A DNA stretch of 64,000 nt, taken from positions 64,446 through 128,445 of the forward strand of contig JABHAL010000004.1 in the NCBI GenBank assembly GCA_018674305.1, in the 5' to 3' direction. Shown one piece after another: positions 26,720 to 55,400 of this stretch (positions are counted from its first letter, which is position 1; each line of letters starts with the position of its first letter). The stretch is from Candidatus Falkowbacteria bacterium (GTDB lineage Bacteria; Patescibacteriota; Patescibacteriia; UBA11705; JABHMO01). The translations under genes and the position numbers were made by a program. The notes below the pieces were generated by a model. It ran no database searches. It worked only from the letters and a program-made list of their open reading frames with translations, and had not been told where the DNA came from.

Positions 26720-26720
26720 A

Positions 26721-31742: not shown

Positions 31743-31796
31743 CTTCTTAATAAGTATTGTGAATTAGATATTATTTATTTGGTATTATTTTTATTA

Positions 31797-32029: not shown

Positions 32030-32104
32030 GCGGGTATCGTATAATGGCTATTATCTCTGCCTTCCAAGCAGATGATGCGGGTTCGATTCCCGCTACCCGC
32101 TCCA
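32030..32104 (+). tRNA. tRNA-Gly (TCC)
   Basis: GCGGGTATCGTATAATGGCTATTA...anticodon loop cTTCCAa...GGTTCGATTCC...TACCCGCTCCA. A terminator follows at 32107-32140. Confidence 0.85.
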
Positions 32105-39325: not shown

Positions 39326-39340
39326 TACTTTTCTTTAAAT

Positions 39341-39372
39341 AAAAAAACATCGCCTATTGCGATGTTTTTTTA
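39341..39372 (+). terminator. Terminator after typA
   Basis: aaaaaaacatcgc-ctatt-gcgatgttttttt. Confidence 0.7.
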
Positions 39373-39459
39373 TTAACACAAGACATCCACTCAAAAACTG
39401 GAAAAACTCAATAAAATAACGTATAATATATATGAAAAATACATAATGATTTCCCAAAT

Positions 39460-42400
39460 ATGAAAAAATATTTTATATTACTTTTTGTAATAGTCGGCTT
39501 TTGTTTTACAGCTGTATCTGCAAGCGCTGCCACTATATACTCCAACAGTTCAACTGGAAACGACACCACAGGTGACGGTACTTCGGGTACTCCATATAAA
39601 ACATTTCATAAAGCATATACTTCAGCTTCAACTGATGATACTCTTGATTTGACCGGTACTTTTAATTGGGCAGATGGTGACGAATCTGGTGACGCATCTT
39701 ATTCAGGTTATACAATTGGGAAAAATATAATTATTCAAGGACAAGGTTCAGATCAAACAATTATTCAAGCTGCTTCAACCGCGCTATCTTCCGGCAAAAG
39801 AGTTTTCACAATTTCAGCCGGTTATTCATTAACTATCCTTGATGCCAATATTAGATACGGTTATCCAACCTCCTATAACTCTGGAGGTTGTATTTTAGTT
39901 AATTCAACTGCCACTCTAACCATAAATCGATCAGAGGTTAATAACTGTAAAGCCCAAACCGGATATGGTGGTGGTATTTATGCTTCCGGTAATACTACTA
40001 TTATTGATTCTGCAATTCATTCGAATGGCGTTTATTATGATGGAGCAGGAATTGTAATTACAGGTGGTGCAAATCTGATTTTAACTAATTCAACCGTCTA
40101 CAACAATGTTGGTTCTGGTAACGCAAACTATAATGGTGGAGGAATCTTGGTCGGAGCAAATGACAATACCACGGCCACAGCAACAATTACCAACTCAACA
40201 ATCACAGATAACTATGCTCGTTATGGAGGTGGCGGTATCTATCTTTCTGGAAATGCCGATCTACGTCTCTATATAAAAAACAGTATCGTAGCCCAAAACG
40301 ACTCCAACAATGGAGGAAACTACAACAACATCTTCAAAGAAACAGCCGCCGTCATTACCAGCAACGGTTACAACATTATCGGAGGATCAAACAGTTATAC
40401 CGCAGCCGCGGGCGACTGGACCGACCAAGGCAACGACGGAACATTTGAACTATATTCAGTAGGTACAACAGGCTCACTAAATTTAGACGCCACACCTTCA
40501 TACAATGACAGTTCACGAAAAACATATACTTACGGAATTTTATCCGGTAGCGTTGCCATTAACAATTCAAATGCTACAGCCAACAACGGAGTTAGCATCC
40601 CTTCAACCGACCAAAGAAATGCCACCCGAGCAGGCGCTGCAGACATCGGTGCATTTGAATACAACGGTACAGGTCTAACAGTTATCGAACCATCAACTCA
40701 AACAACCGATATATCATTCACCCTAGTCGACAACGAACAATTAGCTCTCAGCTGGACAAATGGAAATGGTGACAAAAGAGTCATCTTTGCAAAACAAGCT
40801 AGTTCAGGAACAGCCAGCCCAGTTGACGGTACTTCATATTCAGCCAATTCTGTTCTTGGTAGCGGAGATCAAATCGGCGAAACAGGTTGGTACACCATAT
40901 ACAACGGGGTCGGAACCTCTGTCACTTTGACAGGACTAACAGATTCAACTTCCTATATTTTTCAAGCATTTGAACACAACGGCATAACCGATGGTACAGT
41001 TAACTATTTCACAGATTCGGCTTCAAACAATCCAAAAGTCCAGGCCACCCATACTCCGACAACAATTTATGTCAATTATTCCACTGGAAACGACAGCACC
41101 GGTGACGGATCATCAGGAACCCCTTACAAAACTTTTTACAAAGCATATACCATGTCTTCCGGTGGAGATACCTTGGATTTGACCGGAACCTTTGATTGGT
41201 CAAACGCCGACGAAACTGGTGACGCATCTTCTTCAGGCTATACAATTGGAAAAGATATAATTATTCAAGGACAAGGTGCAGATCAAACAATTATTCAAGC
41301 TGCTTCGACTGCGCTATCTTCCGGTAAAAGAGTTTTTACAATTTCAGCCGGTTATTCATTAACTATTCTTGATGCTAATATAAGATATGGTTATCCAACC
41401 TCATATAGTTCTGGTGGTTGTATTTTGGTTAGTTCAACATCAACCTTAACCATGAACCGATCAGAAGTTAACAACTGTAAAGCCCAAACTGGATATGGTG
41501 GAGGTATTTATGCTGCAGGAGATACGACTATCACTGACTCCTCTATTTATTCAAATAGTGTTTATTACGATGGAGCTGGAATTGTTATTACTGGTGGTGC
41601 AAATCTAATCCTGACGAATTCAACTGTTTACGATAATATCGGAGCTAGTTATCCAAGTTATAATGGTGGTGGAATTTTAATTGGCCAAAATGATAACGCA
41701 ACAGCAACAGCTACAATCACCAATTGTACAATTACCGGCAACTATACACCCTATGGAGGTGGTGGGATTTATCTTTCTGGTAATGCTGGACTTGTTTTGA
41801 ATTTAAAAAATAGTATTGTAGCTGGCAATAGCTCCAATAACGGAGGTCAATATAATAATATTTTTAAGGAAACTGCAGCAACAATTACAAGTAATGGATA
41901 TAATGTTGTTGGAGCTTCTAAATATTTCACCCCCACTACAGGAGATTGGGGAGATCAAGACAATAATGGAACTTATGACTTATATTCAGTAGGCACAACA
42001 GGCTCACTAAATTTAGACTCCACACCTTCATACAATGATAGTTCACGAAAAACATATACTTACGGGATTTTATCCGGTAGCGTTGCCATCAACAATTCAA
42101 ATGCTACCGCCAACAACGGAGTTGGAATCCCCTCAACTGACCAGAGAAATGCCACCCGAGCAGGCGCTGCAGACATCGGTGCATTTGAATACAACGGTAC
42201 AGGTCTAACAGTCATCGAACCATCAACTCAAACAACAGAGATATCATTCACCCTAGTCGACAACGAACAACTAGCTCTCAGCTGGACAAATGGAAATGGT
42301 GACAAGAGAGTCGTCTTTGCCAAGCAAGCTAGCTCAGGAACAGCCAGTCCTGTTGACGGTACTTCATATTCAGCCAATTCTATTCTTGGTAGCGGAGATC

Positions 42401-45400
42401 AAATCGGTGAAACTGGCTGGTACGCTATATACAATGGGGTCGGAACCTCTGTCACTATGACAGGACTAACAGATTCCACTTCCTATATTTTCCAAGCATT
42501 TGAACACAACGGAGTAACCGATGGTACTGTTAACTATTTCACAGATTCGGCTTCAAACAATCCAAAAGTTCAGGCCACCCACACCCCGATAACAATTTAT
42601 GTCAATTATTCCACTGGAAACGACAGCACCGGTGACGGTACTTCTGGTACTCCATATAAAACTTTTCACAAAGCATATACTATGTCTTCCGGTGGAGATA
42701 CCTTGGATTTAACCGGAACCTTTGACTGGTCAAACGCCGACGAAACTGGCGATGTTACCACTTCAGGCTACGTAATTGACAAAGACCTAATCCTCCAAGG
42801 CCAATCAGCCTCAACAACATTCATACAAGCCGCTTCCTCTGCAGAAACAGCCGGCAAAAAGGTTTTTTCAGTTTCCGGTAGTTACGACCTCACAATACAA
42901 GATCTCAACATTAGATATGGCTACCCAACAACATACACTTCAGGCGGTTGTATTAATGTCGGTGGAACAGCGACTTTGACAATGAACCGCTCAGAAGTAA
43001 ATAACTGCAAAGCCTATCGTGGCTACGGAGGGGGAATTTACGCTTCAGGAGACACCACCATCACCAATTCTTCGATTTATTCCAATGGCGTCTATTACGA
43101 CGGAGCTGGAATTGTAATTACCTCCGGAGCAGATCTCATCATGACCAACTCCACCGTCTATAACAACATCGGTCCAGGTTACCCTAGCTACAACGGCGGA
43201 GGAATATTGGTCGGAGCAAATGATAATACCACAGCCACAGCAACAATCACCAATTGTACAATTACCGGCAATTATACTCCCTATGGAGGTGGTGGGATTT
43301 ATGTTTCTGGTAATGCAGGCCTTGTCCTTAATCTTAAAAATACTATTGTAGCTGGCAATACATCAAACAATGGCGGACAATACAATAATGTTTTCAAAGA
43401 AACTGCCGCGACTATCACCAGTAACGGATACAACATAGTCGGAGCTTCAAAATACTACACCGCAGCCACCGGTGACTGGACTGACCAAGACAACAACGGC
43501 ACCTACGATTTGTACTCAATAGGAACAACCGGATCATTAAATCTGGACAGCTCATCAGCAAACAATGACAATACCTATGGCACACTAACCTACGGAATAC
43601 AAAGCAGTAGTATCGCCATCAATAATGCCAATGCTACGGCTAACAATGGAGTTAGTATTCCATCAACCGATCAAAGAGGAGCTGGCCGAAACAGTACCGC
43701 CGACATTGGAGCTTTTGAATACGACGGCGACTATACCATCACCCAGCCGACAACCCAAGCCTCTTCCATCAGCTTCTCATCAGTTAACTTCACCCAAATA
43801 GACCTCAGCTGGACAGCAGGCAACGGATCAAAAAACATTGTCTTCGTAAAACAAGCAAATACCGGCACGGCCTCCCCTGTCGACGAATCAAACTACACTG
43901 CCAATGCGGCCTTTGGTAGCGGTTCCCAAATAAGCTCCACCGGTTGGTATGCTGTATACGACGGTACTGGAACAAGCGTAACCCTAACCGGACTATCTGC
44001 CGGAACCGATTATATTGCCCAAGTATTCACCTACAACGGCATCACCTCAGGTGGAGAAAACTATTTTACAGACACCGCCACCAATAATCCCAATACTCAA
44101 GCAACAGCAGAAGTAACAGAACCAACAACCCAAGCTACAAATATCACTTTTTCTTCAATAGCCTACACCCAGATGACCATCGGTTGGAGCAACGGTGATG
44201 GCACAAAAAGAGTCGTTTTCGTAAAACAAGCCAACACCGGAACAGCTACTCCAGTAGATGACACTGTCTACACCGCCAACACCACTTTTGGCAGCGGAAC
44301 CCAAATTAGCTCCACAGGCTGGTACGCAGTCTACAACAACACCGGCACAAGCGTAACTATTACCGGACTGACTGCAGGCACAGACTACATAGCTCAAGTT
44401 TTCGAATACGACAGCTTCGAATCAACCTATGATTATTTTACCGAGACAGCATCAAACAACCCCAAATCTTCCGCCAGCACTTCAGTAACAACACCCAGCA
44501 CTCAAACCACAAACATTAGCTTCTCTTCAGTCGGATATACTCAAACAGACATTTCATGGTCAAATGGTAACGGAGACGCAAGAATTGTTTTTCTAAAAGA
44601 AGCCAGTACAGGAACAGCTTCCCCAGTAGACGACACCACCTATTCAGCCAATGCAGCATTTGAAAGCGGAACTCAAATAGGATCAACTGGATGGTACACA
44701 GTCTACTCCGGCACAGGAACAAGTGTCACAGTTACAGGTTTATCAACCGGAACAACATACATTGCCCAAGTTTTTGAATACAATACCAGTGGAGCACTCT
44801 CCAAATACTTCACCGATAGCGCTTCAAACAACCCAAAAACTCAAGCAACCAATTCAGTAACAGAACCGACCACCCAATCTAGCAATGTCAGCTTTTCTTC
44901 TGTTACCGGGACTGGATTCACCACTTCCTGGACCAACGGTAACGGTGACGCCAGAGCCGTATTTATAAAACAAGCATCATCAGGCACAGCCGAACCGGTC
45001 GACGACACCACTTATACCGCCAACACAGCCTTTAGTTCAGGTACCCAAATAGGTTCTACCGGTTGGTACTGCGTTTACAATGGAACAAGTACCAACGTAT
45101 CTATTACCGGACTTTCCAGTTCCGCCACTTATCAAGTGCAAGTTTTCGAATACAACGGCGATGCCGGCATTGAAAACTATTTAACCGATTCAGCCTCAAA
45201 CAATCCCAAAAGTCAAGCCACAGCTTCTGAAGTTCAAATTGGCGAAGGAACAGGTTCTCAAAACTATTTACCTTGGGCTAATTATTATCGCTATTCATAC
45301 TCTCAAATGATCTACACCAGCTCTGATATTGGTTCCAACGGATCTATCGATACGATAAAGTTTAAATACAACGGCAACAACACTTATACCTGGAATAACA

Positions 45401-48400
45401 TGGTTGTCTATATGGGCCATACCGACAAAGCTACTTTTTCTTCTGGCAGCGATTGGGTCGCAGTAGGAGATTTGACCCAAGTATATTCTGGTTCAGTATC
45501 CGTAACAGCTGGAGCTTCAGCATGGGATACTATTACACTCGATAGCGAATTTGAATACAACGGATCAGACAATCTAATAATTGCCATCGACAACAATCAC
45601 GGAAGCTACACATCCTCAAGTAGCAAATGGTACTATACTAGCGCTAGTAATACTTTTATTTATAGACAAAGTGATTCAGTCAATTATAGCCCATCCAGCC
45701 CGGGTACTGGTACTCTGAATTCATACCGTCCAAATATAATTCTAAATCTAAATCCTTTAACTCACTCTCTTTCATATTCAGCCGGAGACAACGGCTCAAT
45801 TTCCGGTACAACTTCTCAAACCATTGAAGAAGGCTCAAACGGTACAGCTGTCACCGCAGTCCCAAGCACTGGATACCAATTCGTCAGCTGGAGTGATGGG
45901 TCTACAGCAAACCCAAGAACAGACCTTGACGTCTCTGAAGACGTCACAGTAAGTGCCTCATTTGCCACTCGAGTCTACACTCTAACCTACTCCGCAGGAG
46001 TAAACGGATCCTTGACAGGAGTCACTCCTCAAAACGTCGCCCACAATGGAACAGCCCTCACTGTGACCGCCGTAGCCAACTCTGGATATGTCTTTTCTAC
46101 ATGGTCAGATGGTATCCTTACCGCCGCTAGAACAGATTCCAGTGTAATCGCCGACGCCACTCTAACAGCAACCTTCATCGAATCAACGCCCTACATCTAC
46201 GTCAACAGCTCCACCGGAAACGACAATGTCGGCAATGGAACCTCCGGCAATCCATACAAAACTTTTCACAAAGCCTACACCCAAGCTGAAAATGATTATG
46301 TTATCGATCTAACCGGTACTTTCGACTGGACCAATGCAGCTGAAACTGGCGATGCCAAATACACAGGATATTCCATAGCCAAAGACTTAACCATCCGCGG
46401 ACAAGGCTCAGATGCAACTATCATTCAAGCCGCTTCTGCAGATAATATCGCCGACAGAAGAATTTTTACAATTGCTGCTAACACTACAGTTACTATTCAA
46501 GATCTTGCTATAAGATACGGAAAAATTGATGACAGAACAGGAACAGCATTAAATAATGAAGGCGGTGGTATTTTAAATTTAGGAACAGTCACGGTCAATG
46601 ATTGTGAAATATATAACAACCGAGTGCCAACCGGTTATGGTGGTGGTGGACTATCAAATCGTCATTTAATGACCATCAATGATAGTGCAATCTATAATAA
46701 TATTGCTTACTACATGGGTGGTGGTGTTTTAAATAGTTATACCGTTTCTGCTAGTGGTTATTTAACTATTACTAATTCAACTATTTATTCGAATCAAGTT
46801 ACGCAAGTCATAGCTTATACAGAAGGAGGTGGTGTTCATTTTCGAAAAGGAAACGGAACTATTACAAATACTACAGTAACTAAAAATACTGCTTGTGGAG
46901 TTGCAGGTGTGGGAATGGATGATGCCAATGGCACTGTAAAACTAAAAAATAATATTTTCGCAGGAAATCTGCAAAAAGTTCATTCATATTGCAGTAATGG
47001 CGCCTACCCTAAAGGCTTTGATTTTAGACAAAGTGGCTACGGCAACGTTGTTGATGGTGGAAATAATATTATTGGTGGTTATGCTCAGAATTACAATTTT
47101 ACAGTCAGCACTGATTGGACTGACACTGATCGAGATGGAACTTTTACTAAATATGGGACAGAGACAACTGGCACAATTAATTTCGCTGATGCAGCGGCCT
47201 TGAATTCTAGCCCTAATAAAACAAAAACCTTCGCCGTAACAGAATCAAGTATTGCTATTAATAACGGATCAACTGGAACAAATGGAAATGTTACTGTCTC
47301 AACAATCGACCAAAGAGGTGCAGCTAGAAGCGGAACGGTAGATATTGGTGCGTATGAATATGGTGGTCAATTCCTTAATACTTATACTTTGACTTATTTA
47401 TCAGGACTCGGTGGATATATTTCTGGTACTGCTCTGCAAGAAAATGTTCCTGAAGATGCCAACGGAACAGCCGTCACTCCAACTCCAAATACGGGGTATG
47501 AATTCGTGGATTGGAGCGATGAAGCAACTGACAATCCAAGAACTGATTCCAGTGTTTCTGCTAATGTTTCTGTAACTGCTAATTTTCAAGTCATCACTTA
47601 TGACCTCAGCTACTCAGCTGGAGCAAATGGTTCTTTGACAGGAACAACGTCACAAACTGTTAATTATGGCTCAAATGGTACAGCTGTTACCGCAGTTCCA
47701 GCTGATGGATATAATTTTATTGGTTGGAGTGATGGAGTAGTCACCAATCCTCGCACAGATAGTGGTGTCACTGCTGACGCTACAGTAACGGCCAGCTTTG
47801 CTTCAAATTCTTATAATCTTATTTATACTGCCGGTGCAAACGGTTCTTTAACGGGCACTGCAACTCAGTTAGTTACCTCTGGCGCAGATGGATCTGCTGT
47901 AACTGCCGTTCCTGCTACCGGATATGCCTTTGTAAATTGGAGTGACAGCTCAACAGCTAATCCACGAACTGATACCAGTGTAGGCTCCAATTTGTCAGTC
48001 ACTGCAAATTTTTCTACCGTAAACTACACTCTTACATATTCCGCCGGATCAAATGGTTCTTTGACAGGAACAGCATCGCAAACTGTTAGTTATGCGGCTG
48101 ACGGTACAGCTGTGACAGCCGTACCTAGCGCTGGCTACTCCTTTGTTAATTGGAGTGACGCTTCAACTGATAATCCACGAACTGATACCAGTATTTCAGG
48201 AGATGTTACTGTCACTGCAAATTTTTCAATGAATACTTTTACTTTAACGTATACGGTCGATTATAGAGGAACGCTTACCGGCAGCGCTTCGCAAACAATT
48301 AATTATGGGGAAAACGGCACAGCTATAACTGCGGTTGCTAATTCAGGGTTTACTTTTTTTAGATGGAGTGATGGGTCAACAAATAATCCAAGAACTGACA

Positions 48401-51400
48401 CTAATATAACGAGCAACAAAAGTGTTCGAGCTTATTTTATCTTAGCTGCCTTCACTTCAGCATATACTGCTGGAACTAATGGAACTCTCGTTGGGCAAAC
48501 AAGTCAATCTTCCTATTACGCAGGAAGCAATAGACCGGTTGTGGCTATTCCAAATGAAGGTTACACCTTTCTCAGCTGGAGTGATGGTGTAACAACCGAT
48601 AAGAGAACTGATCTTGGTCTTTCTGAGAATATTAATGTAACTGCAAATTTTGCGCTAAAAACATACAGCCTGGAATATACAGCTGGTGCCAATGGCTCTG
48701 TCACAGGGACAACGTCACAAACCATAAATTATGGAGATACTGGATCAGCAATAACTGCTGTACCAAATTCTAGATTTAGTTTTGTTAAATGGAGTGATGG
48801 ATCAATTACTAATCCGAGAACTGATACTGGTGAAAATATTAATGTTAATGCTGTTTTTGGTGTAGATAGATATGCTTTAACATATGTGGCAGGCTCGAAT
48901 GGCACCGTAACTGGAACAACTTCTCAAACACTTTCCGCCGGAGAAAATGGAACTGCTATTACCGCCACACCAAATTCTGGATATGCCTTTTCTAGCTGGA
49001 GTGACAGTTCAACTGACAACCCAAGGACAGATACAAATATTTCTTCCAGCATGTACCTGACTGCCAACTTTACAATTAATACTTTTACTCTTTCATATTC
49101 AGCTGGTGACAATGGCTCTCTGACCGGAACAACCTCACAATCTGTGAATTATTCCGCTGACAGTACCGCGGTAACTGCGGTTCCTGATAGCGGATATCAC
49201 TTTGTAAATTGGAGTGATGGAAGTGCACAAAATCCTAGAACTGATGTAAATGTTTCCGCAAACGTTTCTATATCTGCAACCTTTGCGGAAAACAGAGCAG
49301 CAACAACCATTTACGTTAATAATTCAACTGGAAATGACACAACTGGTGATGGCAGTTCTGATACTCCTTACAAAACATTTCACAAAGGATATATTATGTC
49401 TGCTACTGGCGATATTTTGGACTTGACCGGCACCTTCACTTGGACTGACGCTGCGGAAATTGGAGACTACTACAAACAAGGTTATGTGCTTACAAAAAAC
49501 TTGACCGTACAAGGGCAAGGTGCAGACACGACAATTATTCAGGCTGCCAGCCGAGACAACAGTGCCAATCGAAGAGTTTTTACTGTTGTTTCTGGAGCAA
49601 CTGTAACTTTTCAAAATTTAACTGTCAGATATGGTCGGGTTTTTGGCTATCAAAGTGATGGAGGTGGAATTAGAAATGATGGAATAACGACGATTGATGA
49701 TTGCGAGATCTACAATAATCGTTCAGCTTCAGATTCTGGTGGTGGTATTTCGAATAGACATACTTTAACTGTTACTAATAGTTCTATTTATAATAATGTT
49801 GCTTATTACATGGGAGGAGGAATTGTTAACAGTTTCTATGTTGATCCTTCTGGTTATTTAACAGTTACCAATTCAACAATTGCCTATAATCAACAAACTA
49901 CTGGAATTGCTTACACAGAAGGTGGTGGAATACATATCAGAAAAGGTAGTGCAACGATTACTAATTCAACAATTGCCTATAATACAGCTACAGGTGTTGC
50001 GGGCCTTGGCATAGATGACTCCGATGGAACGATAACAATTAAAAATACAATTATTGCCAATAATATTAAACGAAACAGTGATTATTATGTTGACTTTGGC
50101 TTCCGAGCCAGTGGTCAAGGCAATGTTGTTGATAATGGAAATAATATTGTTGGTGTTTCTCAGAACTATACATGGTCTGGAACTGGCGACTGGTCGGATG
50201 TCGATCGTGACGGTACATTTCTTTTGAATAACTCAATAACTACCGGCTCATTGAATTTAAATTCGTATTTGGCATTTAACGGCAACACCAATAAAACCAA
50301 AACTCTCTCCGTTTCAACCGGAAGTGTGGCTATTGATTACGGAACTACTGGCACTAACGGAGCAGTTAGTGTGCCGACAGCTGATCAAAGAGATTTCATA
50401 AGAGAGTCTACACCAGATATTGGATCGTTTGAATTCTTAAGTGCACCTGATGATACAACGGACCCTGTTATTTCCGACATTTCGTCCACGCCAACTTCAA
50501 CAACCGCTGTTATTACCTGGACAACTGATGAGGCAACCTCATCCCAAATTATTTATGATCCTAATCAAATCCGTTCAACGGCTTCTGATGTTTCAAATGT
50601 AGATACTGGGGTTACCAGCCATGAAATAACCTTATCTGATCTTGTTTCCTGTACAAAATATTATTATGTTGTCACCTCGACTGATTCATCTGGCAATACA
50701 GCCCTCAGCGCTGAAAATACTTTTATTACTACTGGTTGTGCGGGTAACGCTTCTGTAGGAACCATTAATGAAACAACCGCGATTCCCGAATATGGTGGTA
50801 CAATAAATCAATCAGGTGATGATTTTACTTTTGCAATGACCATTCCGGAAAGTTTTTCAGAGGATCCCGCAGATTTTCAAATTAAAAGTTTAGATTCGGC
50901 TACTGTTATATCTGCTCTTTCTTCTCCAACTAATTATAATAAAATCGGCGATAACATTTTCGATATAAAGGCCCTTGATACTCCTTCTTCAACTGTCAGT
51001 GAGTTTGATTCTGATGTTGAAATAACAATTACCTATGATGAAGAAGATATTGCTGGTCTCCAGGAAAGTACATTGAAACTTCATCGAAATGATGACGACG
51101 AATGGTTTGAATTAGCCGACTGTGTTGTTGATCCTGACGCCAACTCGGTTACTTGTTCTACAAATAACTTTTCCGTTGTTGGTCTTTTCGGTGAGGCAAT
51201 TGCCTATAACTTAACCTACATCGCAGGATCTAATGGTTCCATAACTGGAACAACTGAACAAACAATTGATACTGGAGAAAATGGAACTGAGGTTACAGCT
51301 GTACCTGAAAACGGTTACCAATTCTCAAGCTGGAGTGACGAATCTTTAGATAATCCAAGAACTGATTTAAGTGCAAGTGCTGATATAACAGTAACCGCAA

Positions 51401-52215
51401 ACTTCACTATTTCTGGCAGAAGAACCGTTCCAACTGATAATCAAGTTCCTGTTCAAGTCGAAACTCCTACCACTTCCCCAACAGATGATCAAAGTACCAT
51501 TCGCAAAGAAGACGAAACGATAAGACAAGAAGCTTCAACCGATAGAACTGAAGCACAAACATCCTTAAATGAAGGTAAATTAATTAAATATCCAGACTCT
51601 CCCAAAATATATCTAATTGAAAACGGTAAGAAAAGATGGATCGTTGATGAGTTTACTTTTAACCAAAGAGAATTTGACTGGAGCAAAATCAATGAGATTG
51701 ATTCAGCAACACAGCTTCAAGATGGTGAATCCCTCTTAGTAGACATCTCCATTTATGAGGAAAAATTAATCAAGTATCCTGACGCTCCAAACGTTTATTT
51801 AATCGAAAATAATTTAAAAAGATGGATTGTTGATGAATACTCCTTTAATCACAATGACTATGACTGGACAGCAATTCAAGAATTACCAAATACCCTCATT
51901 TTTAGTGATGGAGAAAATATTTTGTACGAAGAACCTGCCACAATTGAACTAACGATTGAAGTTCAAGAACAAGAAGATCTTTCTAGCCGAAACTTGGAAG
52001 AAGGCATGGCAGGAGAGGATGTCAGAGCATTGCAAAAATATTTAAATGACAACGGTTTCATCGTCAGTAATACAGATTTCGGCTCACCTGGGAATGAATC
52101 CACTTTCTTTGGTCAAAAAACTCAATCAGCCTTGATAAAATTCCAAGAAGCCAATAATATATTTCCCGCCAAAGGCTTTTATGGCCCAGTAACTAGAGGA
52201 TATATTAATTTATAA
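39460..52215 (+). CDS. Giant (4251-aa) secreted repetitive cell-surface protein. It has a signal peptide, five parallel beta-helix-like modules, Fn3-like domains, ~15 copies of a ~70-aa beta-sandwich repeat and a C-terminal peptidoglycan-binding domain
   Basis: N-terminus MKKYFILLFVIVGFCFTAVSASA. Each beta-helix module opens with STGND..GDG.SG.PYKTF(H/Y)KAYT and carries repeated GGGI(Y/L) and NxxGGG rungs. Tandem modules of the form YSAGxNGSLTGTxSQTVxYGxxGTAVTAVPxxGYxFVxWSDGxxxNPRTD. C-terminus GEDVRALQKYLNDNGF...FGQKTQSALIKFQ resembles PG_binding_1. Confidence 0.8.
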   Translation: MKKYFILLFVIVGFCFTAVSASAATIYSNSSTGNDTTGDGTSGTPYKTFHKAYTSASTDDTLDLTGTFNWADGDESGDASYSGYTIGKNIIIQGQGSDQTIIQAASTALSSGKRVFTISAGYSLTILDANIRYGYPTSYNSGGCILVNSTATLTINRSEVNNCKAQTGYGGGIYASGNTTIIDSAIHSNGVYYDGAGIVITGGANLILTNSTVYNNVGSGNANYNGGGILVGANDNTTATATITNSTITDNYARYGGGGIYLSGNADLRLYIKNSIVAQNDSNNGGNYNNIFKETAAVITSNGYNIIGGSNSYTAAAGDWTDQGNDGTFELYSVGTTGSLNLDATPSYNDSSRKTYTYGILSGSVAINNSNATANNGVSIPSTDQRNATRAGAADIGAFEYNGTGLTVIEPSTQTTDISFTLVDNEQLALSWTNGNGDKRVIFAKQASSGTASPVDGTSYSANSVLGSGDQIGETGWYTIYNGVGTSVTLTGLTDSTSYIFQAFEHNGITDGTVNYFTDSASNNPKVQATHTPTTIYVNYSTGNDSTGDGSSGTPYKTFYKAYTMSSGGDTLDLTGTFDWSNADETGDASSSGYTIGKDIIIQGQGADQTIIQAASTALSSGKRVFTISAGYSLTILDANIRYGYPTSYSSGGCILVSSTSTLTMNRSEVNNCKAQTGYGGGIYAAGDTTITDSSIYSNSVYYDGAGIVITGGANLILTNSTVYDNIGASYPSYNGGGILIGQNDNATATATITNCTITGNYTPYGGGGIYLSGNAGLVLNLKNSIVAGNSSNNGGQYNNIFKETAATITSNGYNVVGASKYFTPTTGDWGDQDNNGTYDLYSVGTTGSLNLDSTPSYNDSSRKTYTYGILSGSVAINNSNATANNGVGIPSTDQRNATRAGAADIGAFEYNGTGLTVIEPSTQTTEISFTLVDNEQLALSWTNGNGDKRVVFAKQASSGTASPVDGTSYSANSILGSGDQIGETGWYAIYNGVGTSVTMTGLTDSTSYIFQAFEHNGVTDGTVNYFTDSASNNPKVQATHTPITIYVNYSTGNDSTGDGTSGTPYKTFHKAYTMSSGGDTLDLTGTFDWSNADETGDVTTSGYVIDKDLILQGQSASTTFIQAASSAETAGKKVFSVSGSYDLTIQDLNIRYGYPTTYTSGGCINVGGTATLTMNRSEVNNCKAYRGYGGGIYASGDTTITNSSIYSNGVYYDGAGIVITSGADLIMTNSTVYNNIGPGYPSYNGGGILVGANDNTTATATITNCTITGNYTPYGGGGIYVSGNAGLVLNLKNTIVAGNTSNNGGQYNNVFKETAATITSNGYNIVGASKYYTAATGDWTDQDNNGTYDLYSIGTTGSLNLDSSSANNDNTYGTLTYGIQSSSIAINNANATANNGVSIPSTDQRGAGRNSTADIGAFEYDGDYTITQPTTQASSISFSSVNFTQIDLSWTAGNGSKNIVFVKQANTGTASPVDESNYTANAAFGSGSQISSTGWYAVYDGTGTSVTLTGLSAGTDYIAQVFTYNGITSGGENYFTDTATNNPNTQATAEVTEPTTQATNITFSSIAYTQMTIGWSNGDGTKRVVFVKQANTGTATPVDDTVYTANTTFGSGTQISSTGWYAVYNNTGTSVTITGLTAGTDYIAQVFEYDSFESTYDYFTETASNNPKSSASTSVTTPSTQTTNISFSSVGYTQTDISWSNGNGDARIVFLKEASTGTASPVDDTTYSANAAFESGTQIGSTGWYTVYSGTGTSVTVTGLSTGTTYIAQVFEYNTSGALSKYFTDSASNNPKTQATNSVTEPTTQSSNVSFSSVTGTGFTTSWTNGNGDARAVFIKQASSGTAEPVDDTTYTANTAFSSGTQIGSTGWYCVYNGTSTNVSITGLSSSATYQVQVFEYNGDAGIENYLTDSASNNPKSQATASEVQIGEGTGSQNYLPWANYYRYSYSQMIYTSSDIGSNGSIDTIKFKYNGNNTYTWNNMVVYMGHTDKATFSSGSDWVAVGDLTQVYSGSVSVTAGASAWDTITLDSEFEYNGSDNLIIAIDNNHGSYTSSSSKWYYTSASNTFIYRQSDSVNYSPSSPGTGTLNSYRPNIILNLNPLTHSLSYSAGDNGSISGTTSQTIEEGSNGTAVTAVPSTGYQFVSWSDGSTANPRTDLDVSEDVTVSASFATRVYTLTYSAGVNGSLTGVTPQNVAHNGTALTVTAVANSGYVFSTWSDGILTAARTDSSVIADATLTATFIESTPYIYVNSSTGNDNVGNGTSGNPYKTFHKAYTQAENDYVIDLTGTFDWTNAAETGDAKYTGYSIAKDLTIRGQGSDATIIQAASADNIADRRIFTIAANTTVTIQDLAIRYGKIDDRTGTALNNEGGGILNLGTVTVNDCEIYNNRVPTGYGGGGLSNRHLMTINDSAIYNNIAYYMGGGVLNSYTVSASGYLTITNSTIYSNQVTQVIAYTEGGGVHFRKGNGTITNTTVTKNTACGVAGVGMDDANGTVKLKNNIFAGNLQKVHSYCSNGAYPKGFDFRQSGYGNVVDGGNNIIGGYAQNYNFTVSTDWTDTDRDGTFTKYGTETTGTINFADAAALNSSPNKTKTFAVTESSIAINNGSTGTNGNVTVSTIDQRGAARSGTVDIGAYEYGGQFLNTYTLTYLSGLGGYISGTALQENVPEDANGTAVTPTPNTGYEFVDWSDEATDNPRTDSSVSANVSVTANFQVITYDLSYSAGANGSLTGTTSQTVNYGSNGTAVTAVPADGYNFIGWSDGVVTNPRTDSGVTADATVTASFASNSYNLIYTAGANGSLTGTATQLVTSGADGSAVTAVPATGYAFVNWSDSSTANPRTDTSVGSNLSVTANFSTVNYTLTYSAGSNGSLTGTASQTVSYAADGTAVTAVPSAGYSFVNWSDASTDNPRTDTSISGDVTVTANFSMNTFTLTYTVDYRGTLTGSASQTINYGENGTAITAVANSGFTFFRWSDGSTNNPRTDTNITSNKSVRAYFILAAFTSAYTAGTNGTLVGQTSQSSYYAGSNRPVVAIPNEGYTFLSWSDGVTTDKRTDLGLSENINVTANFALKTYSLEYTAGANGSVTGTTSQTINYGDTGSAITAVPNSRFSFVKWSDGSITNPRTDTGENINVNAVFGVDRYALTYVAGSNGTVTGTTSQTLSAGENGTAITATPNSGYAFSSWSDSSTDNPRTDTNISSSMYLTANFTINTFTLSYSAGDNGSLTGTTSQSVNYSADSTAVTAVPDSGYHFVNWSDGSAQNPRTDVNVSANVSISATFAENRAATTIYVNNSTGNDTTGDGSSDTPYKTFHKGYIMSATGDILDLTGTFTWTDAAEIGDYYKQGYVLTKNLTVQGQGADTTIIQAASRDNSANRRVFTVVSGATVTFQNLTVRYGRVFGYQSDGGGIRNDGITTIDDCEIYNNRSASDSGGGISNRHTLTVTNSSIYNNVAYYMGGGIVNSFYVDPSGYLTVTNSTIAYNQQTTGIAYTEGGGIHIRKGSATITNSTIAYNTATGVAGLGIDDSDGTITIKNTIIANNIKRNSDYYVDFGFRASGQGNVVDNGNNIVGVSQNYTWSGTGDWSDVDRDGTFLLNNSITTGSLNLNSYLAFNGNTNKTKTLSVSTGSVAIDYGTTGTNGAVSVPTADQRDFIRESTPDIGSFEFLSAPDDTTDPVISDISSTPTSTTAVITWTTDEATSSQIIYDPNQIRSTASDVSNVDTGVTSHEITLSDLVSCTKYYYVVTSTDSSGNTALSAENTFITTGCAGNASVGTINETTAIPEYGGTINQSGDDFTFAMTIPESFSEDPADFQIKSLDSATVISALSSPTNYNKIGDNIFDIKALDTPSSTVSEFDSDVEITITYDEEDIAGLQESTLKLHRNDDDEWFELADCVVDPDANSVTCSTNNFSVVGLFGEAIAYNLTYIAGSNGSITGTTEQTIDTGENGTEVTAVPENGYQFSSWSDESLDNPRTDLSASADITVTANFTISGRRTVPTDNQVPVQVETPTTSPTDDQSTIRKEDETIRQEASTDRTEAQTSLNEGKLIKYPDSPKIYLIENGKKRWIVDEFTFNQREFDWSKINEIDSATQLQDGESLLVDISIYEEKLIKYPDAPNVYLIENNLKRWIVDEYSFNHNDYDWTAIQELPNTLIFSDGENILYEEPATIELTIEVQEQEDLSSRNLEEGMAGEDVRALQKYLNDNGFIVSNTDFGSPGNESTFFGQKTQSALIKFQEANNIFPAKGFYGPVTRGYINL
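39532..43700 (+). repeat. Three tandem ~1530-nt near-identical direct repeats (unit starts 39532, 41062 and 42592; the third diverges after ~1.1 kb) inside the giant gene
   Basis: Long stretches of near-identity among the units, for example ...actggaaacgacagcaccggtgacgg... and ...ggctcactaaatttagac(g/t)ccacaccttcatacaatga(c/t)agttcacgaaaaacatatacttacgg... Confidence 0.75.
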
Positions 52216-52228
52216 TTTTCCTTATAAT

Positions 52229-52263
52229 AAAAAACCGCCTTTATAAAAAGGCTGGTTTTTTTA
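52229..52263. terminator. Bidirectional terminator between the giant gene (+) and the ZIP transporter gene (-)
   Basis: aaaaaccgcctttataaaaaggctggttttttt is an imperfect hairpin flanked by A and T runs. Confidence 0.5.
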
Positions 52264-52279
52264 TTCTTTCTCTATTAAC

Positions 52280-53599: not shown

Positions 53600-54152
53600 A
53601 GAGCCGCCTGGGGGTGCAACCCCCAGGCTAGATTTTTACAAGCCCCCTAAAGCGGGCTAAGGAATATATTCATAAATCTCTAACGACTTATTTGTTGCGT
53701 GTCTTTCTTTTTGATTTTCAATATACTTACCTACAAAAGGCACATCTTTTTCCGACAAACTTAAAACCCCATAGCCAGACTGCCAATAAAACAGCCGTTC
53801 ATTTAAATTGACATTCACATGATTTGACGCGCTTCCTTTTATCGAATGAACAAATTCTGCGCAACTTATTCTTGGTGGAATGCTTGCCATTAAATGAAGA
53901 TGGTCGTCTGTCATATTTAATTCTAACTGTTTACCGCCCAATTCTCCAATTTTGCCAGGCATGAATTCCTTCAATATACATTCTATTTGCGGTGTAATAA
54001 TTGGTTTTCGATTTTTCGTTGCCCAAACAAAATGATAAAACAATCGATAATAAGCATTTGACATAATATATATTTATTTATTAATTTCAACCCGCATCCC
54101 TGTTCACAGGGATTTGCTTTCACTAGCCTGGGGGTTGCACCCCCAGGCGGCT
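53600..54152 (-). mobile_element. IS200/IS605-family insertion sequence of IS200 type (tnpA only), with subterminal palindromic hairpins
   Basis: Imperfect palindromes gccgcCTGGGGGTGCAACCCCCAGGct at 53603-53629 and agCCTGGGGGTTGCACCCCCAGGcggc at 54125-54151 flank the Y1 transposase gene. An extra hairpin tccctgttcacaggga lies at ~54096-54111. Confidence 0.7.
53657..54064 (-). CDS. tnpA: IS200-type HUH (Y1) transposase TnpA
   Basis: 135 aa: YHFVWATKNRKP...DDHLHLMASIPP(HuH)...SIKGSAS...YWQSGYGVLS, the typical IS200 TnpA order of motifs and size. Confidence 0.85.
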   Translation of the reverse strand: MSNAYYRLFYHFVWATKNRKPIITPQIECILKEFMPGKIGELGGKQLELNMTDDHLHLMASIPPRISCAEFVHSIKGSASNHVNVNLNERLFYWQSGYGVLSLSEKDVPFVGKYIENQKERHATNKSLEIYEYIP

Positions 54153-54354: not shown

Positions 54355-54780
54355 CTAAATCATATTTAAAAGTTGCTGTGCTTGTCTTGTTATCTGAATT
54401 CTTTTTTCAATCAATCCATTGATTATTAGCAGCGCAGAAATAATATTAAATTGCACAGAACCAACGCTTCCTCCAAAATCAATATCATGTTCTGCAAATT
54501 CAATATCTCTTGCTGGTATAACGTCCTGACCGCTCCAGTCTTCAATCATTACCACTCCCAAAACAGAAATCCTTCCTTCCCACTCAATAACAAATAGACA
54601 CCCTGGACTTCTGGGTGTTCCCCCCGGAACTTTGCAATAATCCAACTTATTTCGAATTTGATAAACAACCGCCAGTCCTTTTCTATGTTTCACCCCATCA
54701 GTATCAGTAAAATTTTTCAACTCGGCAAAACTTCCATCCGGAACCTCTAGCAGTTCCGGCCAAGTTTTAATTTGTTCCAT
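54355..54780 (-). CDS. Hypothetical 141-aa protein, GC-elevated
   Basis: ORF ending at the shared terminator. Its size and the W..LE...G pattern are faintly reminiscent of SUKH/SMI1-type immunity domains. Weak. Confidence 0.4.
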   Translation of the reverse strand: MEQIKTWPELLEVPDGSFAELKNFTDTDGVKHRKGLAVVYQIRNKLDYCKVPGGTPRSPGCLFVIEWEGRISVLGVVMIEDWSGQDVIPARDIEFAEHDIDFGGSVGSVQFNIISALLIINGLIEKRIQITRQAQQLLNMI

Positions 54781-54783
54781 TTG

Positions 54784-55374: not shown

Positions 55375-55400
55375 TGAAGCCGAGTTTTTGGGTTTTTATT

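What the first reader, a model, noticed from the sequence alone, without database searches (positions are those of the whole stretch)
39460..52215. 12.8-kb gene for a modular surface giant anchored by a peptidoglycan-binding domain
The 4251-aa product has a signal peptide and five beta-helix modules (39.5-43.7 kb three times, 46.2-47.4 kb, 49.3-50.4 kb). Each module starts with STGNDxxGDGxSGxPYKTF(H/Y)KAYT. There are at least 10 Fn3-like ~110-aa domains (TQxxxISFSSVxxTxxxLSWTxGNGxxRxVFxKQAxxGTAxPVD...YxAQVFEYN) and ~15 copies of a ~70-aa repeat ending WSDGxxxNPRTD. A duplicated ~55-aa module (LIKYPD(S/A)P(K/N)(I/V)YLIEN..KRWIVDE(F/Y)(T/S)FN) precedes a C-terminal PG_binding_1-like domain. This is a wall-anchored fibre with several potential carbohydrate-binding or lyase-like beta-helices. 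It is a plausible adhesin or host-attachment organelle for a small-genome, possibly episymbiotic cell.
Basis: partly seen in the sequence, partly recalled or inferred. Interest (0 to 1): 0.6.

Follow-up and report, generated by a model that had tools for sequence, protein, structure and literature searches.

The report
Giant wall-anchored beta-helix surface fibre
A tiny-genome Candidatus Falkowbacteria (CPR) bacterium encodes a real 4,251-residue secreted protein with five beta-helix heads on a stalk of small repeat domains and a peptidoglycan-binding tail; it is the largest member found here of a modular surface-protein family, probably an adhesin, and not a new kind of system.

Summary
The ORF at 39460-52215 (+) is real and uninterrupted. 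Four independent assemblies give the same 12,756 nt with 0-2 differences, and its longest exact internal repeat is only 68 nt. The domain calls mostly hold:
- a Sec-type signal peptide;
- five right-handed beta-helix modules, each ending in a choice-of-anchor Q motif (AF2 pLDDT 95.8);
- a duplicated ~62-aa module;
- a C-terminal PG_binding_1 domain (Pfam match and a SleB-like fold).

The repeat counts were too high. There are 6 (+1) Fn3-like domains, not at least 10, and 12 InlB-B-repeat-like units, not about 15.

NCBI names the organism Candidatus Falkowbacteria and lists the protein as hypothetical. The same module set recurs in many Patescibacteria classes and in Bacteroidota, with 1-3 beta-helices found in the other members. 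A Peribacteria homologue is collinear at 56-70% identity. Across 50 complete relatives the C-terminus holds PG_binding_1 (20), type IX sorting domains (16 Por_Secre_tail, 7 CHU_C) or SLH (2). This supports reading the tail as the cell's own envelope anchor.

The best reading is a wall-tethered, multi-headed adhesin or glycan-binding fibre of roughly 100 nm. No evidence for enzymatic activity was found, but it is not excluded. Three segments (X, Y and the duplicated module) match no Pfam family or solved structure by sequence. Verdict: new member of a known kind, moderate interest.

The parts
39338..39376 (+). Hairpin with A-run and T-run after the upstream BipA gene. It separates the giant gene from the upstream transcription unit.
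   Evidence: RNA fold gives -17.6 kcal/mol, z -9.4. Sequence read.
39399..39427 (+). Promoter-like site, TGGAAA-17-TATAAT, 32 nt upstream of the start codon.
   Evidence: Consensus scan, 10 of 12 matches. This is a pattern match only.
39460..52215 (+). Complete ORF of 4251 aa. The mature protein is about 444 kDa with pI 4.2 and is rich in T, S, G and N.
   Evidence: Identical in independent assemblies. NCBI MBT5502598.1, 'hypothetical protein', Candidatus Falkowbacteria.
39460..39531 (+). Sec-type signal peptide (aa 1-24), with inferred cleavage after SASA.
   Evidence: Read from the translation. Relatives start the same way, with a signal peptide followed by 'A(T/A)IY.N'. No signal-peptide predictor was run.
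39532..40662 (+). Beta-helix module 1 with its choice-of-anchor Q C-terminal cap (aa 25-401).
   Evidence: Pfam Beta_helix and NCBIfam NF041518. AF2 pLDDT 95.8, right-handed beta-helix. Best PDB match is RbtA, 9cdv.
40672..41046 (+). Fn3-like 124-aa 'WTNGNG' domain, copy 1 (aa 405-529).
   Evidence: Self-built HMM, 215 bits. Pfam matches are below threshold: Pur_ac_phosph_N 26 bits, fn3 18 bits.
41062..42192 (+). Beta-helix and choice-of-anchor Q module 2 (aa 535-911), 83% identical to module 1.
42202..42576 (+). Fn3-like domain, copy 2 (aa 915-1039).
42592..43722 (+). Beta-helix and choice-of-anchor Q module 3 (aa 1045-1421).
43729..45219 (+). Four tandem Fn3-like domains, copies 3-6 (aa 1424-1920).
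   Evidence: The best Pfam fn3 stretch is aa 1808-1901.
45220..45738 (+). Domain X (aa 1921-2093), unannotated. It belongs to a very large family that is often multi-copy in giant proteins.
   Evidence: No Pfam or PDB sequence match. The exhaustive search found 6129 cluster representatives at E<=1e-3, with up to 14 copies per protein. The collinear homologue L012 has a different domain at this position.
45739..46164 (+). Two InlB-B-repeat-like units (Flg_new_2), aa 2094-2235.
46192..47361 (+). Beta-helix and choice-of-anchor Q module 4 (aa 2245-2634), about 45% identical to modules 1-3.
47362..49272 (+). Nine tandem Flg_new_2 units (aa 2635-3271).
49306..50436 (+). Beta-helix and choice-of-anchor Q module 5 (aa 3283-3659), 56% identical to module 4.
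50449..50787 (+). Fn3 / purple-acid-phosphatase-N-type domain (aa 3664-3776).
   Evidence: Pfam Pur_ac_phosph_N, 34.2 bits against a cut-off of 30.
50788..51183 (+). Domain Y (aa 3777-3908), unannotated, with two invariant cysteines. In relatives it lies on the anchor side of the last beta-helix.
   Evidence: No Pfam or PDB sequence match. Present in 20 or more relatives. Invariant C112 and C123 in the alignment.
51184..51393 (+). Twelfth Flg_new_2 unit (aa 3909-3978).
51394..51564 (+). Low-complexity linker rich in P, T, Q and E (aa 3979-4035).
   Evidence: Read from the translation.
51565..51936 (+). Two copies of the ~62-aa 'LIKYPD...KRWI...W' module, called DUP here (aa 4036-4097 and 4098-4159). 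It is an uncharacterised companion of PG_binding_1.
   Evidence: Alignment A3. No Pfam or PDB sequence match. The AF2 model is confident, a small alpha/beta module. Weak Foldseek hits to EccB1 repeats and PlyCB. It also occurs next to PG_binding_1 in M23 peptidases and matches phrog_9616.
51982..52212 (+). PG_binding_1 domain (aa 4175-4251), the inferred non-covalent wall anchor.
   Evidence: Pfam 39 bits against a cut-off of 23. The AF2 model matches the SleB N-terminal domain 6tci at TMt 0.81, rmsd 2.0 A, 33% identity. It also matches PHROG endolysin wall-binding regions.
52228..52266 (.). Two-way terminator-like hairpin between the giant gene and the convergent ZIP transporter gene.
   Evidence: Terminator scan finds it on both strands. 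Fold gives -14.1 kcal/mol, z -5.0.

Best explanation
The gene encodes a Sec-exported cell-surface fibre of a Candidatus Falkowbacteria (Patescibacteria/CPR) cell, about 444 kDa when mature.

Inferred anchoring: the C-terminal cassette of two DUP modules plus PG_binding_1 holds the protein non-covalently on the cell's own peptidoglycan.

Shown architecture: ahead of the anchor lie a low-complexity linker and a chain of small beta-rich spacer domains (7 Fn3-type and 12 InlB-B-repeat-type). Set into that chain are five right-handed beta-helix modules, each closed by a choice-of-anchor Q cap, and two unannotated domains, X and Y.

Inferred function: the beta-helix heads, and probably X, act as binding surfaces for glycans or other structures on host cells or particles, which makes the protein a multivalent adhesin. 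If fully extended it would be on the order of 100 nm long. That figure is a rough estimate from typical domain sizes and was not computed.

Evolution: the protein belongs to a modular family found in many Patescibacteria classes and in Bacteroidota. The same passenger modules are combined in different numbers and joined to whichever anchor suits the envelope: PG_binding_1, SLH, or a type IX sorting domain. This copy is collinear with a Peribacteria-type 3-helix protein, carries two extra [beta-helix + Fn3-like] units at its N-terminus, and ends in the DUP and PG_binding_1 tail.
For: The gene is real.
- The ORF is intact, and four assemblies give the same 12,756 nt with 0-2 differences. The longest internal exact repeat is 68 nt.
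- Strong hairpins flank it and a promoter-like site precedes it, so it looks monocistronic.

The domains are supported.
- Pfam: Flg_new_2 350.9 bits (12 stretches), Beta_helix 70 bits (5), fn3 60.7 bits, PG_binding_1 31.6 bits.
- NCBIfam: choice_anch_Q 154 bits (5 stretches).
- AF2 model of module 1: pLDDT 95.8, beta-helix.
- The closest solved structure is RbtA, a beta-helix cell-surface protein of A. baumannii (E 2.5e-7, TM 0.52-0.55; PMC12643943).

The tail is an anchor.
- The tail model (pLDDT 91.7) matches the SleB N-terminal domain, the Streptomyces Zn DD-peptidase and phage endolysin PG-binding domains.
- In the last 160 aa of 50 complete relatives, Pfam finds PG_binding_1 in 20, Por_Secre_tail in 16, CHU_C in 7 and SLH in 2 (examples).
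- The DUP module always neighbours PG_binding_1, including in M23 peptidoglycan peptidases.

The protein belongs to a family.
- 71 loci in species-representative genomes encode the module.
- The architectures share the same building blocks.
- L012 (Peribacteria MAG, 3251 aa) aligns to aa 1040-1923 at 56% identity and to aa 2099-3984 at 69.7% over 1886 aa.
- L005 (Magasanikbacteria) aligns to aa 2-1430 at 49.6% and also ends in DUP plus PG_binding_1.

The heads look like binders rather than enzymes.
- The only beta-helix match is the generic Beta_helix model.
- The residues conserved across 67 family members are Asn, Gly, Thr and the C-terminal DQR...R....DIG..E cap motif. These look structural.

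Context from the literature:
- Very large surface proteins with adhesion domains are reported in other Patescibacteria (PMC13059738).
- Envelope proteins with glycan-binding domains are essential for epibiotic growth of a cultivated saccharibacterium (PMC10633639).
Against: - There is no expression, localisation or binding data for this protein or any close relative.
- The adhesin role rests on architecture and analogy alone.
- Beta-helices of this type are also the scaffold of many polysaccharide lyases, hydrolases and esterases, and such enzymes appear among the weaker fold matches (Pel9A, GH136, rhamnogalacturonan lyase, pectin methylesterase; E 1e-4 to 1e-2, TM 0.27-0.46).
- I could not inspect model coordinates, so I could not exclude a catalytic groove conserved only within the CPR subfamily. 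Eleven charged residues are invariant among 11 close modules.
- PG_binding_1 could in principle bind a host's wall rather than the cell's own.
- No signal-peptide predictor was run.
- Whether Falkowbacteria are episymbionts is not known.
Confidence: 0.68

Rival explanations
1. The protein is a wall-tethered array of polysaccharide-degrading enzymes. The five beta-helix modules would be lyases, hydrolases or esterases that cut capsule, EPS or wall polymers of a host or of particles. The repeat domains would be spacers or carbohydrate-binding modules.
For: - The fold class is shared with PL9 Pel9A, GH136 lacto-N-biosidase, rhamnogalacturonan lyase, CE8 pectin methylesterases, PL6 alginate lyases and phage tailspikes.
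- Eleven charged residues are invariant within the close subfamily: D11, K27, E51, D54, K64, R108, K249, D360, R362, D371 and E376.
- The homologue L012 carries, at the X position, a different ~170-aa domain whose sequence looks to me like a carbohydrate-binding module. That resemblance was not tested.
- Essential glycan-binding or glycan-degrading envelope proteins are proposed for a cultivated saccharibacterium (PMC10633639).
Against: - No CAZyme-type Pfam or NCBIfam family matches. Only the generic Beta_helix and choice-of-anchor Q models do.
- Matches to enzymes are weak (TM <= 0.46, 11-14% identity). The best match, RbtA, is described as a cell-surface protein and no enzymatic activity is reported in the papers read.
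- Across the wider family, only structural-looking Asn, Gly and Thr positions and the C-terminal cap motif stay conserved.
- No phage depolymerase relatives were found by sequence.
Confidence: 0.2
2. The protein is mainly a structural envelope component, such as an S-layer-like coat or wall-spanning scaffold, and not a ligand-specific adhesin.
For: - Homologues in Peribacteria and Peregrinibacteria MAGs end in SLH domains, which are typical of S-layer and wall-associated proteins.
- The composition is acidic and rich in T, S, G and N.
- In this collection the sequence is nearly invariant: two other full-length variants differ by one residue each.
Against: - Module number varies from 1 to 5 among relatives, and a whole domain is swapped at the X position. 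That fits a variable interaction protein better than a lattice-forming coat.
- A 4251-aa chain of beads-on-a-string domains is unlike known S-layer subunits. This comparison rests on general knowledge and was not tested here.
- This protein has no SLH domain.
Confidence: 0.07
3. The long ORF is an assembly artefact, a chimera or a collapse across repeats.
For: The gene is highly repetitive at the protein level and comes from metagenome assemblies.
Against: - The repeats have diverged at the DNA level. The best 300-nt copies are 82-86% identical, and the longest exact repeat is 68 nt.
- The same 12,756-nt sequence appears in four independent assemblies, and the exact protein is on 23 contigs, one of them 794,652 bp.
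- Four NCBI MAG accessions carry the same protein.
- A collinear homologue exists in another lineage.
Confidence: 0.02

Closest known systems
Choice-of-anchor Q domain-containing beta-helix proteins (NCBIfam NF041518)
   Same: All five modules end in the choice-of-anchor Q motif (154 bits, 5 stretches) after a right-handed beta-helix. As the family name implies, homologous passengers carry different C-terminal anchors: PG_binding_1, SLH, Por_Secre_tail or CHU_C.
   Different: This protein has five modules in one chain. Relatives found here have 1-3. The anchor is a DUP x2 plus PG_binding_1 cassette, and the modules are interleaved with 19 spacer domains and two unannotated domains.
Collinear Patescibacteria homologues: L012 (Peribacteria MAG CAYYQE010000018.1, 3251 aa), L005 (Magasanikbacteria MAG, 2083 aa) and P0003 (Candidatus Parcubacteria, 795 aa)
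   Same: The building blocks and their order are the same. L012 aligns at 56% identity (aa 1040-1923) and 69.7% (aa 2099-3984). L005 aligns at 49.6% over aa 2-1430 and has the same DUP plus PG_binding_1 tail. P0003 is a one-helix version with the same tail.
   Different: L012 ends in three SLH domains and has another domain at the X position. None of them has five helices. The window protein looks like a Peribacteria-type protein with two extra N-terminal units and a Parcubacteria-type tail.
Rhombotarget A (RbtA) of Acinetobacter baumannii, PDB 9cdv/9cdu
   Same: It is the closest solved fold (Foldseek E 2.5e-7, TM 0.52-0.55). It too is a beta-helix cell-surface protein whose C-terminus is a sorting signal.
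   Different: Sequence identity is only 16-18%. RbtA has a single helix in 617 aa and belongs to a diderm that uses the rhombosortase system. Its function is also unknown, so the match does not assign an activity.
Very large surface proteins of other Patescibacteria (Absconditicoccaceae) and giant adhesins in general
   Same: They are large, carry a signal peptide, are multi-domain with Fn3-type and other adhesion domains, and are proposed to mediate host recognition (PMC13059738).
   Different: The domain content differs. [quoted passage not shown] No homology to them was tested here.
PG_binding_1 wall-binding domains of SleB, Zn DD-peptidase and phage endolysins
   Same: The tail has the same fold and the Pfam family matches (6tci TMt 0.81).
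   Different: In those proteins the domain targets a wall-cleaving enzyme. Here it sits at the end of a non-enzymatic-looking fibre, preceded by two DUP modules.

Membership tests
Choice-of-anchor Q beta-helix proteins (NF041518) | Match to the NF041518 profile above its curated cut-off | tested here: met
   154 bits against a cut-off of 25, five stretches. The DQR...R....DIG..E motif lies at the end of each module.
Choice-of-anchor Q beta-helix proteins (NF041518) | The motif caps a right-handed parallel beta-helix | tested here: met
   Pfam Beta_helix, 5 stretches. The AF2 model has pLDDT 95.8 and regular short strands throughout. Fold matches are all beta-helix proteins.
Choice-of-anchor Q beta-helix proteins (NF041518) | Homologous passengers occur with alternative C-terminal sorting or anchoring domains | tested here: met
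   In 50 complete relatives: PG_binding_1 20, Por_Secre_tail 16, CHU_C 7, SLH 2.
PG_binding_1 (PF01471) | Profile match above the gathering score | tested here: met
   31.6 bits for the whole protein and 39 bits for the segment, against a cut-off of 23.
PG_binding_1 (PF01471) | Helical-bundle fold as in solved PG-binding domains | tested here: met
   The AF2 tail model matches 6tci at TMt 0.81 and rmsd 2.0 A. It also matches 5tv7, 1lbu, 3bkh and 5nm7.
PG_binding_1 (PF01471) | Binds peptidoglycan, and binds that of the producing cell | not testable with these tools
   Inferred only from positional equivalence with SLH and type IX sorting domains in relatives.
InlB B-repeat-like (Flg_new_2, PF18998) | Profile match above the gathering score, in tandem units of about 70 aa | tested here: met
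   350.9 bits, 12 stretches. The self-built HMM finds 12 units of 71 aa.
Fibronectin type III | Profile match above the gathering score for each domain | tested here: inconclusive
   The whole protein scores fn3 60.7 bits. A single 124-aa 'WTNGNG' domain scores only 18 bits for fn3 and 26 bits for Pur_ac_phosph_N, both below their cut-offs. The domain at aa 3664-3776 passes Pur_ac_phosph_N at 34.2 against 30. No structure was predicted for these domains.
Polysaccharide lyase, glycoside hydrolase or esterase beta-helix enzymes (PL1/3/6/9, GH28/136, CE8) | Match to an enzyme-family profile | tested here: not met
   Pfam and NCBIfam list only Beta_helix and choice_anch_Q for the helix regions.
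Polysaccharide lyase, glycoside hydrolase or esterase beta-helix enzymes (PL1/3/6/9, GH28/136, CE8) | Catalytic residues conserved in a substrate groove | not tested
Family-wide conserved residues are Asn, Gly and Thr positions and the C-terminal cap motif. Fold matches to enzymes have TM <= 0.46.
Chlamydial Pmp-type or autotransporter adhesins | Chlam_PMP repeats (PF02415) and a C-terminal beta-barrel translocator | tested here: not met
   This protein has no PF02415 match at E <= 0.1. Only distant homologues of the module carry it. The C-terminus is PG_binding_1, not a barrel.
SLH-anchored S-layer or wall proteins | SLH domains | tested here: not met
   This protein has no SLH match. SLH is present in homologues L012 and L015.
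Sortase (LPXTG) or rhombosortase (GlyGly-CTERM) substrates | C-terminal sorting motif followed by a hydrophobic segment and a basic tail | tested here: not met
   The last 77 aa are the PG_binding_1 domain, ending ...GFYGPVTRGYINL. There is no LPXTG motif, GlyGly motif or hydrophobic tail (read).

The most novel reading that the evidence does not exclude
The family may be a host-capture toolkit shared among Patescibacteria lineages. Beta-helix heads and swappable lectin-like inserts (the X position) would set host or substrate range. Blocks would move between classes: there is 70% identity over 1,886 aa between Falkowbacteria-labelled and Peribacteria-labelled MAGs. The anchor would then be exchanged to fit each lineage's wall chemistry. 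In that reading the ~62-aa DUP module is a previously unrecognised peptidoglycan- or wall-binding module that partners PG_binding_1. It also occurs in M23 peptidases and in a phage family.
Probability: 0.2. Interest if true: 0.55.

Novelty: new member of a known kind. Interest (0 to 1): 0.36.

Why it matters
How ultrasmall CPR/Patescibacteria recognise and hold on to hosts or particles is largely unknown outside a few cultivated Saccharibacteria. This gene takes up about 1.6% of a 795-kb contig, so the cell invests heavily in it.

Three things make it a useful, testable candidate for attachment studies:
- Comparative evidence identifies which end is the anchor.
- The binding modules (five beta-helix modules and domain X) are clearly delimited.
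- Relatives exist in many CPR classes.

The work also flags three common but unannotated domain types. Domain X alone has more than 6,000 cluster representatives. Y and the PG_binding_1-associated DUP module are the other two. All three deserve family definitions.

None of this changes current concepts. Giant modular surface proteins, choice-of-anchor passengers and PG_binding_1 anchors are all known.

Tried and rejected
Searches that found nothing or failed:
- A sequence search of the whole protein against PDB chains gave no hit.
- Profile searches of DUP, X and Y against PDB sequences gave nothing meaningful.
- Pfam at E up to 1-10 for X, Y and DUP gave nothing credible.
- PHROGs gave no beta-helix match, apart from a 29-residue N-cap hit at E 0.0012. 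A scan of viral contigs found no relatives. I therefore dropped a phage tailspike origin. BFVD fold matches are generic beta-helices.
- The locus search with the 67-sequence alignment failed for lack of a conserved stretch. I repeated it with 11 close sequences.
- The word-indexed homologue search for domain X found one protein. The exhaustive search found 6129.

Ideas considered and rejected:
- Misassembly.
- Sortase or type IX anchoring of this protein.
- An operon with partner genes. The neighbours are a DEAD helicase, BipA, a ZIP transporter and an IS200 transposase, and hairpins flank the gene.
- Further paralogues in the window. There are none.

Left open: horizontal transfer is suggested by the 70% identity to a Peribacteria-labelled MAG and by raised GC3 in the Fn3-like block (0.44 against 0.22-0.28). 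No phylogeny was made, and MAG binning errors cannot be excluded.
Full report

The window contains one uninterrupted ORF at 39460..52215 on the plus strand, 4251 codons plus the stop.

Motif and profile counts give this domain map, in residues:
- signal peptide, 1-24
- beta-helix modules, 25-401, 535-911, 1045-1421, 2245-2634 and 3283-3659
- a 124-aa Fn3-like 'WTNGNG' domain, six copies: 405-529, 915-1039 and four in tandem at 1424-1920
- an unannotated domain X, 1921-2093
- twelve ~71-aa WSD....NPRTD units: two at 2094-2235, nine at 2635-3271 and one at 3909-3978
- a separate Fn3 / purple-acid-phosphatase-N domain, 3664-3776
- an unannotated domain Y, 3777-3908
- a low-complexity linker, 3979-4035
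- two ~62-aa 'LIKYPD' modules, called DUP here, 4036-4159
- PG_binding_1, 4175-4251

The module-start motif is exact in three modules and slightly altered in modules 4 and 5. The numbers are 6 (+1) and 12.

Modules 1-3 are 73-83% identical to each other, modules 4 and 5 are 56% identical, and the two groups are about 45% identical.

**2. Is it an assembly artefact?**

The repeats have diverged at the DNA level. The best 300-nt copies are 82-86% identical. The longest exact internal repeat is 68 nt, and there is none of 77 nt or longer.

The exact protein is recorded on 23 contigs. Four independent assemblies that I could read give the same 12,756 nt with 0-2 differences, and all translate to the query. 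One of those contigs is 794,652 bp.

Two other full-length variants in the collection differ by a single residue each. I consider misassembly excluded for practical purposes.

**3. Organism and context**

NCBI holds the identical protein under four MAG accessions (for example MBT5502598.1) as 'hypothetical protein' of Candidatus Falkowbacteria bacterium.

The window is ordinary housekeeping DNA of a small genome. It carries a 16S rRNA gene, a six-tRNA cluster, UvrA, UvrC, PolA and RmuC. A DEAD helicase and BipA lie just upstream. A ZIP transporter lies convergent downstream, followed by an IS200-type transposase.

Strong hairpins with A-runs and T-runs flank the giant gene (-17.6 and -14.1 kcal/mol; z -9.4 and -5.0). 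A promoter-like site precedes it. It therefore appears to be its own transcription unit with no dedicated partner genes. No other ORF in the window carries any of its domains.

**4. What the parts are**

*Profile matches.* Pfam gives Flg_new_2 ('divergent InlB B-repeat', 350.9 bits, 12 stretches), Beta_helix (70 bits, 5 stretches), fn3 (60.7 bits), Pur_ac_phosph_N and PG_binding_1 (31.6 bits against a cut-off of 23). NCBIfam gives only choice-of-anchor Q (154 bits against 25, five stretches). This is the DQR...R....DIG..E motif that closes each helix module.

*Beta-helix module.* An AF2 model of module 1, built on 67 sequences, has mean pLDDT 95.8 and shows the strand pattern of a right-handed beta-helix.
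- Its best solved match is RbtA, rhombotarget A of Acinetobacter baumannii (E 2.5e-7, TM 0.52-0.55).
- RbtA is described as a cell-surface protein. No structure or function was known for it before it was used as a design target (PMC12643943; PMC5861075).
- Pectate lyase Pel9A, GH136 lacto-N-biosidases, rhamnogalacturonan lyase and pectin methylesterases follow at E 1e-4 to 1e-2 and TM 0.27-0.46. That is similarity of fold class only.

*The tail.* An AF2 model of the last 160 residues (pLDDT 91.7) has two parts.
- The PG_binding_1 part matches the SleB N-terminal domain (TMt 0.81, rmsd 2.0 A, 33% identity) and other peptidoglycan-binding domains.
- The DUP part is a confident small alpha/beta module. 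Its only fold leads are weak hits to EccB1 repeat domains and PlyCB. For EccB1 a wall-binding role has only been suggested, while PlyCB is described as a phage cell-wall-binding subunit (PMC4769845).

*Unannotated domains.*
- X, Y and DUP have no Pfam family and no PDB relative by sequence.
- X nevertheless belongs to a very large family. The exhaustive search found 6129 cluster representatives at E <= 1e-3, often with several copies (up to 14) in proteins of up to 7628 aa. Ten of those proteins also showed no Pfam family over the X region.

**5. Relatives and what they say about function**

The helix module with its N-terminal cap motif was found at 71 loci in species-representative genomes. 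Most are Patescibacteria: Magasanik-, Falkow-, Woese-, Nomura-, Kaiser-, Staskawicz-, Taylor- and Saccharibacteria, Paceibacterota, Peri- and Peregrinibacteria. Bacteroidota are the second large group. A few loci come from other phyla.

Scanning the encoded proteins with profiles built from the window protein shows a shared set of building blocks in varying numbers. Many proteins of about 1400 aa read BH-Fn3L-BH-...-Y-PG_binding_1.

| Homologue | Length | Architecture |
|---|---|---|
| L005 (Magasanikbacteria) | 2083 aa | BH-Fn3L-BH-Fn3L-BH-...-DUP-PG_binding_1 |
| L012 (Peribacteria MAG) | 3251 aa | BH-Fn3L x4-(other domain)-FLG x2-BH-FLG x9-BH-Fn3-Y-FLG x2-SLH x3 |

L012 aligns to residues 1040-1923 at 56% identity and to residues 2099-3984 at 69.7% over 1886 residues. 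It carries a different ~170-aa domain where the window protein has X. L005 aligns to residues 2-1430 at 49.6%.

The window protein is therefore collinear with a Peribacteria-type three-helix protein. It has two further [helix + Fn3-like] units at its N-terminus and a Parcubacteria-type DUP plus PG_binding_1 tail. With five helices it is the largest version found here.

In the last 160 residues of 50 complete relatives, Pfam finds PG_binding_1 in 20, Por_Secre_tail in 16, CHU_C in 7 and SLH in 2. In this set PG_binding_1 tails occur in MAGs labelled Patescibacteria or left unlabelled. The one type IX tail I checked individually (L037) is from a Bacteroidales MAG.

This is the behaviour that the name 'choice-of-anchor' describes. 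It is the main argument that the C-terminus of the window protein is the anchor to the producing cell's envelope and that the N-terminal parts project outward.

The DUP module is always adjacent to PG_binding_1. It also follows PG_binding_1 in two Parcubacteria M23 peptidases (P0123, P0125), and it matches a phage family of unknown function, phrog_9616, at E 6.7e-6. This fits an accessory wall-associated role but does not prove one.

**6. Most likely mechanism**

*Shown:*
- a Sec-type leader, read from the sequence
- five beta-helices with conserved caps
- 19 small spacer domains
- a PG_binding_1 fold at the extreme C-terminus
- family-wide exchange of C-terminal anchors

*Inferred:*
- The protein is exported and held non-covalently on the cell's own peptidoglycan.
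- It extends as a fibre on the order of 100 nm. This is my rough estimate from typical domain sizes.
- Its helix heads, and probably X, bind glycans or other surface structures of host cells or particles.

Three observations argue against an enzymatic role, although none is decisive:
- No enzyme-family profile matches.
- The best structural neighbour is a surface protein with no reported activity.
- Conservation across 67 family members is limited to Asn, Gly and Thr positions and the cap motif.

I could not inspect model coordinates, so a subfamily-specific active site is not excluded. I put the tethered adhesin or binding-fibre reading at about 0.68, a tethered depolymerase array at about 0.2, a mainly structural coat at about 0.07 and an artefact at about 0.02.

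**7. Comparison with what is known, and novelty**

The domain families are all described: choice-of-anchor Q, Beta_helix, Flg_new_2, fn3 and PG_binding_1. The protein itself is already deposited as a hypothetical protein.

Very large, surface-targeted proteins with adhesion domains have been reported for other Patescibacteria (PMC13059738). Envelope proteins with glycan-binding domains are essential for epibiotic growth of a cultivated saccharibacterium (PMC10633639).

My paper searches found no description of this particular module family, of its anchor exchange across CPR classes, or of the DUP, X and Y domains. Those searches were limited.

I therefore class the finding as a new member of a known kind. 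It is a useful candidate for attachment studies and a pointer to three unannotated domain families, but it is not a conceptual surprise. Interest 0.36.

**8. Caveats**
- No expression or localisation data exist.
- The taxon labels of MAGs, including 'Peribacteria' for L012, depend on binning.
- The hint of lateral transfer was not tested with a phylogeny. It rests on 70% identity across classes and on GC3 of 0.44 in the Fn3-like block against 0.22-0.28 in neighbouring genes.
- The Fn3 assignment of the 124-aa domain rests on sub-threshold profile matches.
- The DUP fold assignment is only a lead.

Noticed in passing
window 25033-28214: The 16S rRNA gene (25033-26524, +) stands alone, with no 23S rRNA in the following 5 kb. 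It is followed on the minus strand by a 497-aa ORF (26721-28214) with no Pfam match. GC there is 0.44-0.46, against about 0.37 for the window.
   Followed up: partly
window 31199-32104: A cluster of six tRNA genes (Val, Ile, Phe, Pro, Lys, Gly) lies on the plus strand. A lone tRNA-Cys sits at 20109-20183.
   Followed up: no
window 53657-54064 (-): An IS200-type Y1 transposase gene lies 1.4 kb downstream of the giant gene. It is followed by several small ORFs without Pfam matches at 54355-56000. I did not test whether it relates to the mosaic history of the giant gene.
   Followed up: no
window 51565-51936; proteins P0123, P0125: The ~62-aa DUP module matches phage family phrog_9616 (unknown function, E 6.7e-6). 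A divergent copy follows PG_binding_1 in two Parcubacteria M23 peptidases. It looks like an unrecognised wall-associated module.
   Followed up: partly
L012 protein residues ~923-1095, against window 45220-45738: The otherwise collinear Peribacteria homologue carries a different ~170-aa domain ('LLTNPGAEEGTTTGWTV...') where the window protein has domain X. This is a cassette swap at one position of the fibre.
   Followed up: partly
window 45220-45738 (domain X): Domain X belongs to a family with 6129 cluster representatives at E <= 1e-3. It often occurs in up to 14 copies in proteins of up to 7628 aa. It has no Pfam family and no relative of solved structure by sequence.
   Followed up: partly
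window 43729-45219: Third-position GC of the four tandem Fn3-like domains is 0.44, against 0.22-0.28 in neighbouring housekeeping genes and 0.31 for the whole giant gene. This is a weak hint of foreign origin.
   Followed up: no
window 56419-58782 (+): A 787-aa protein has only an N-terminal TrmB-type helix-turn-helix match. That is unusually long for this regulator family.
   Followed up: no
L012, L015 (C-termini): Homologues in MAGs labelled Peribacteria and Peregrinibacteria end in SLH domains. Those in Parcubacteria-type MAGs end in PG_binding_1. This suggests different wall chemistry, or different anchoring polymers, in these CPR lineages.
   Followed up: partly
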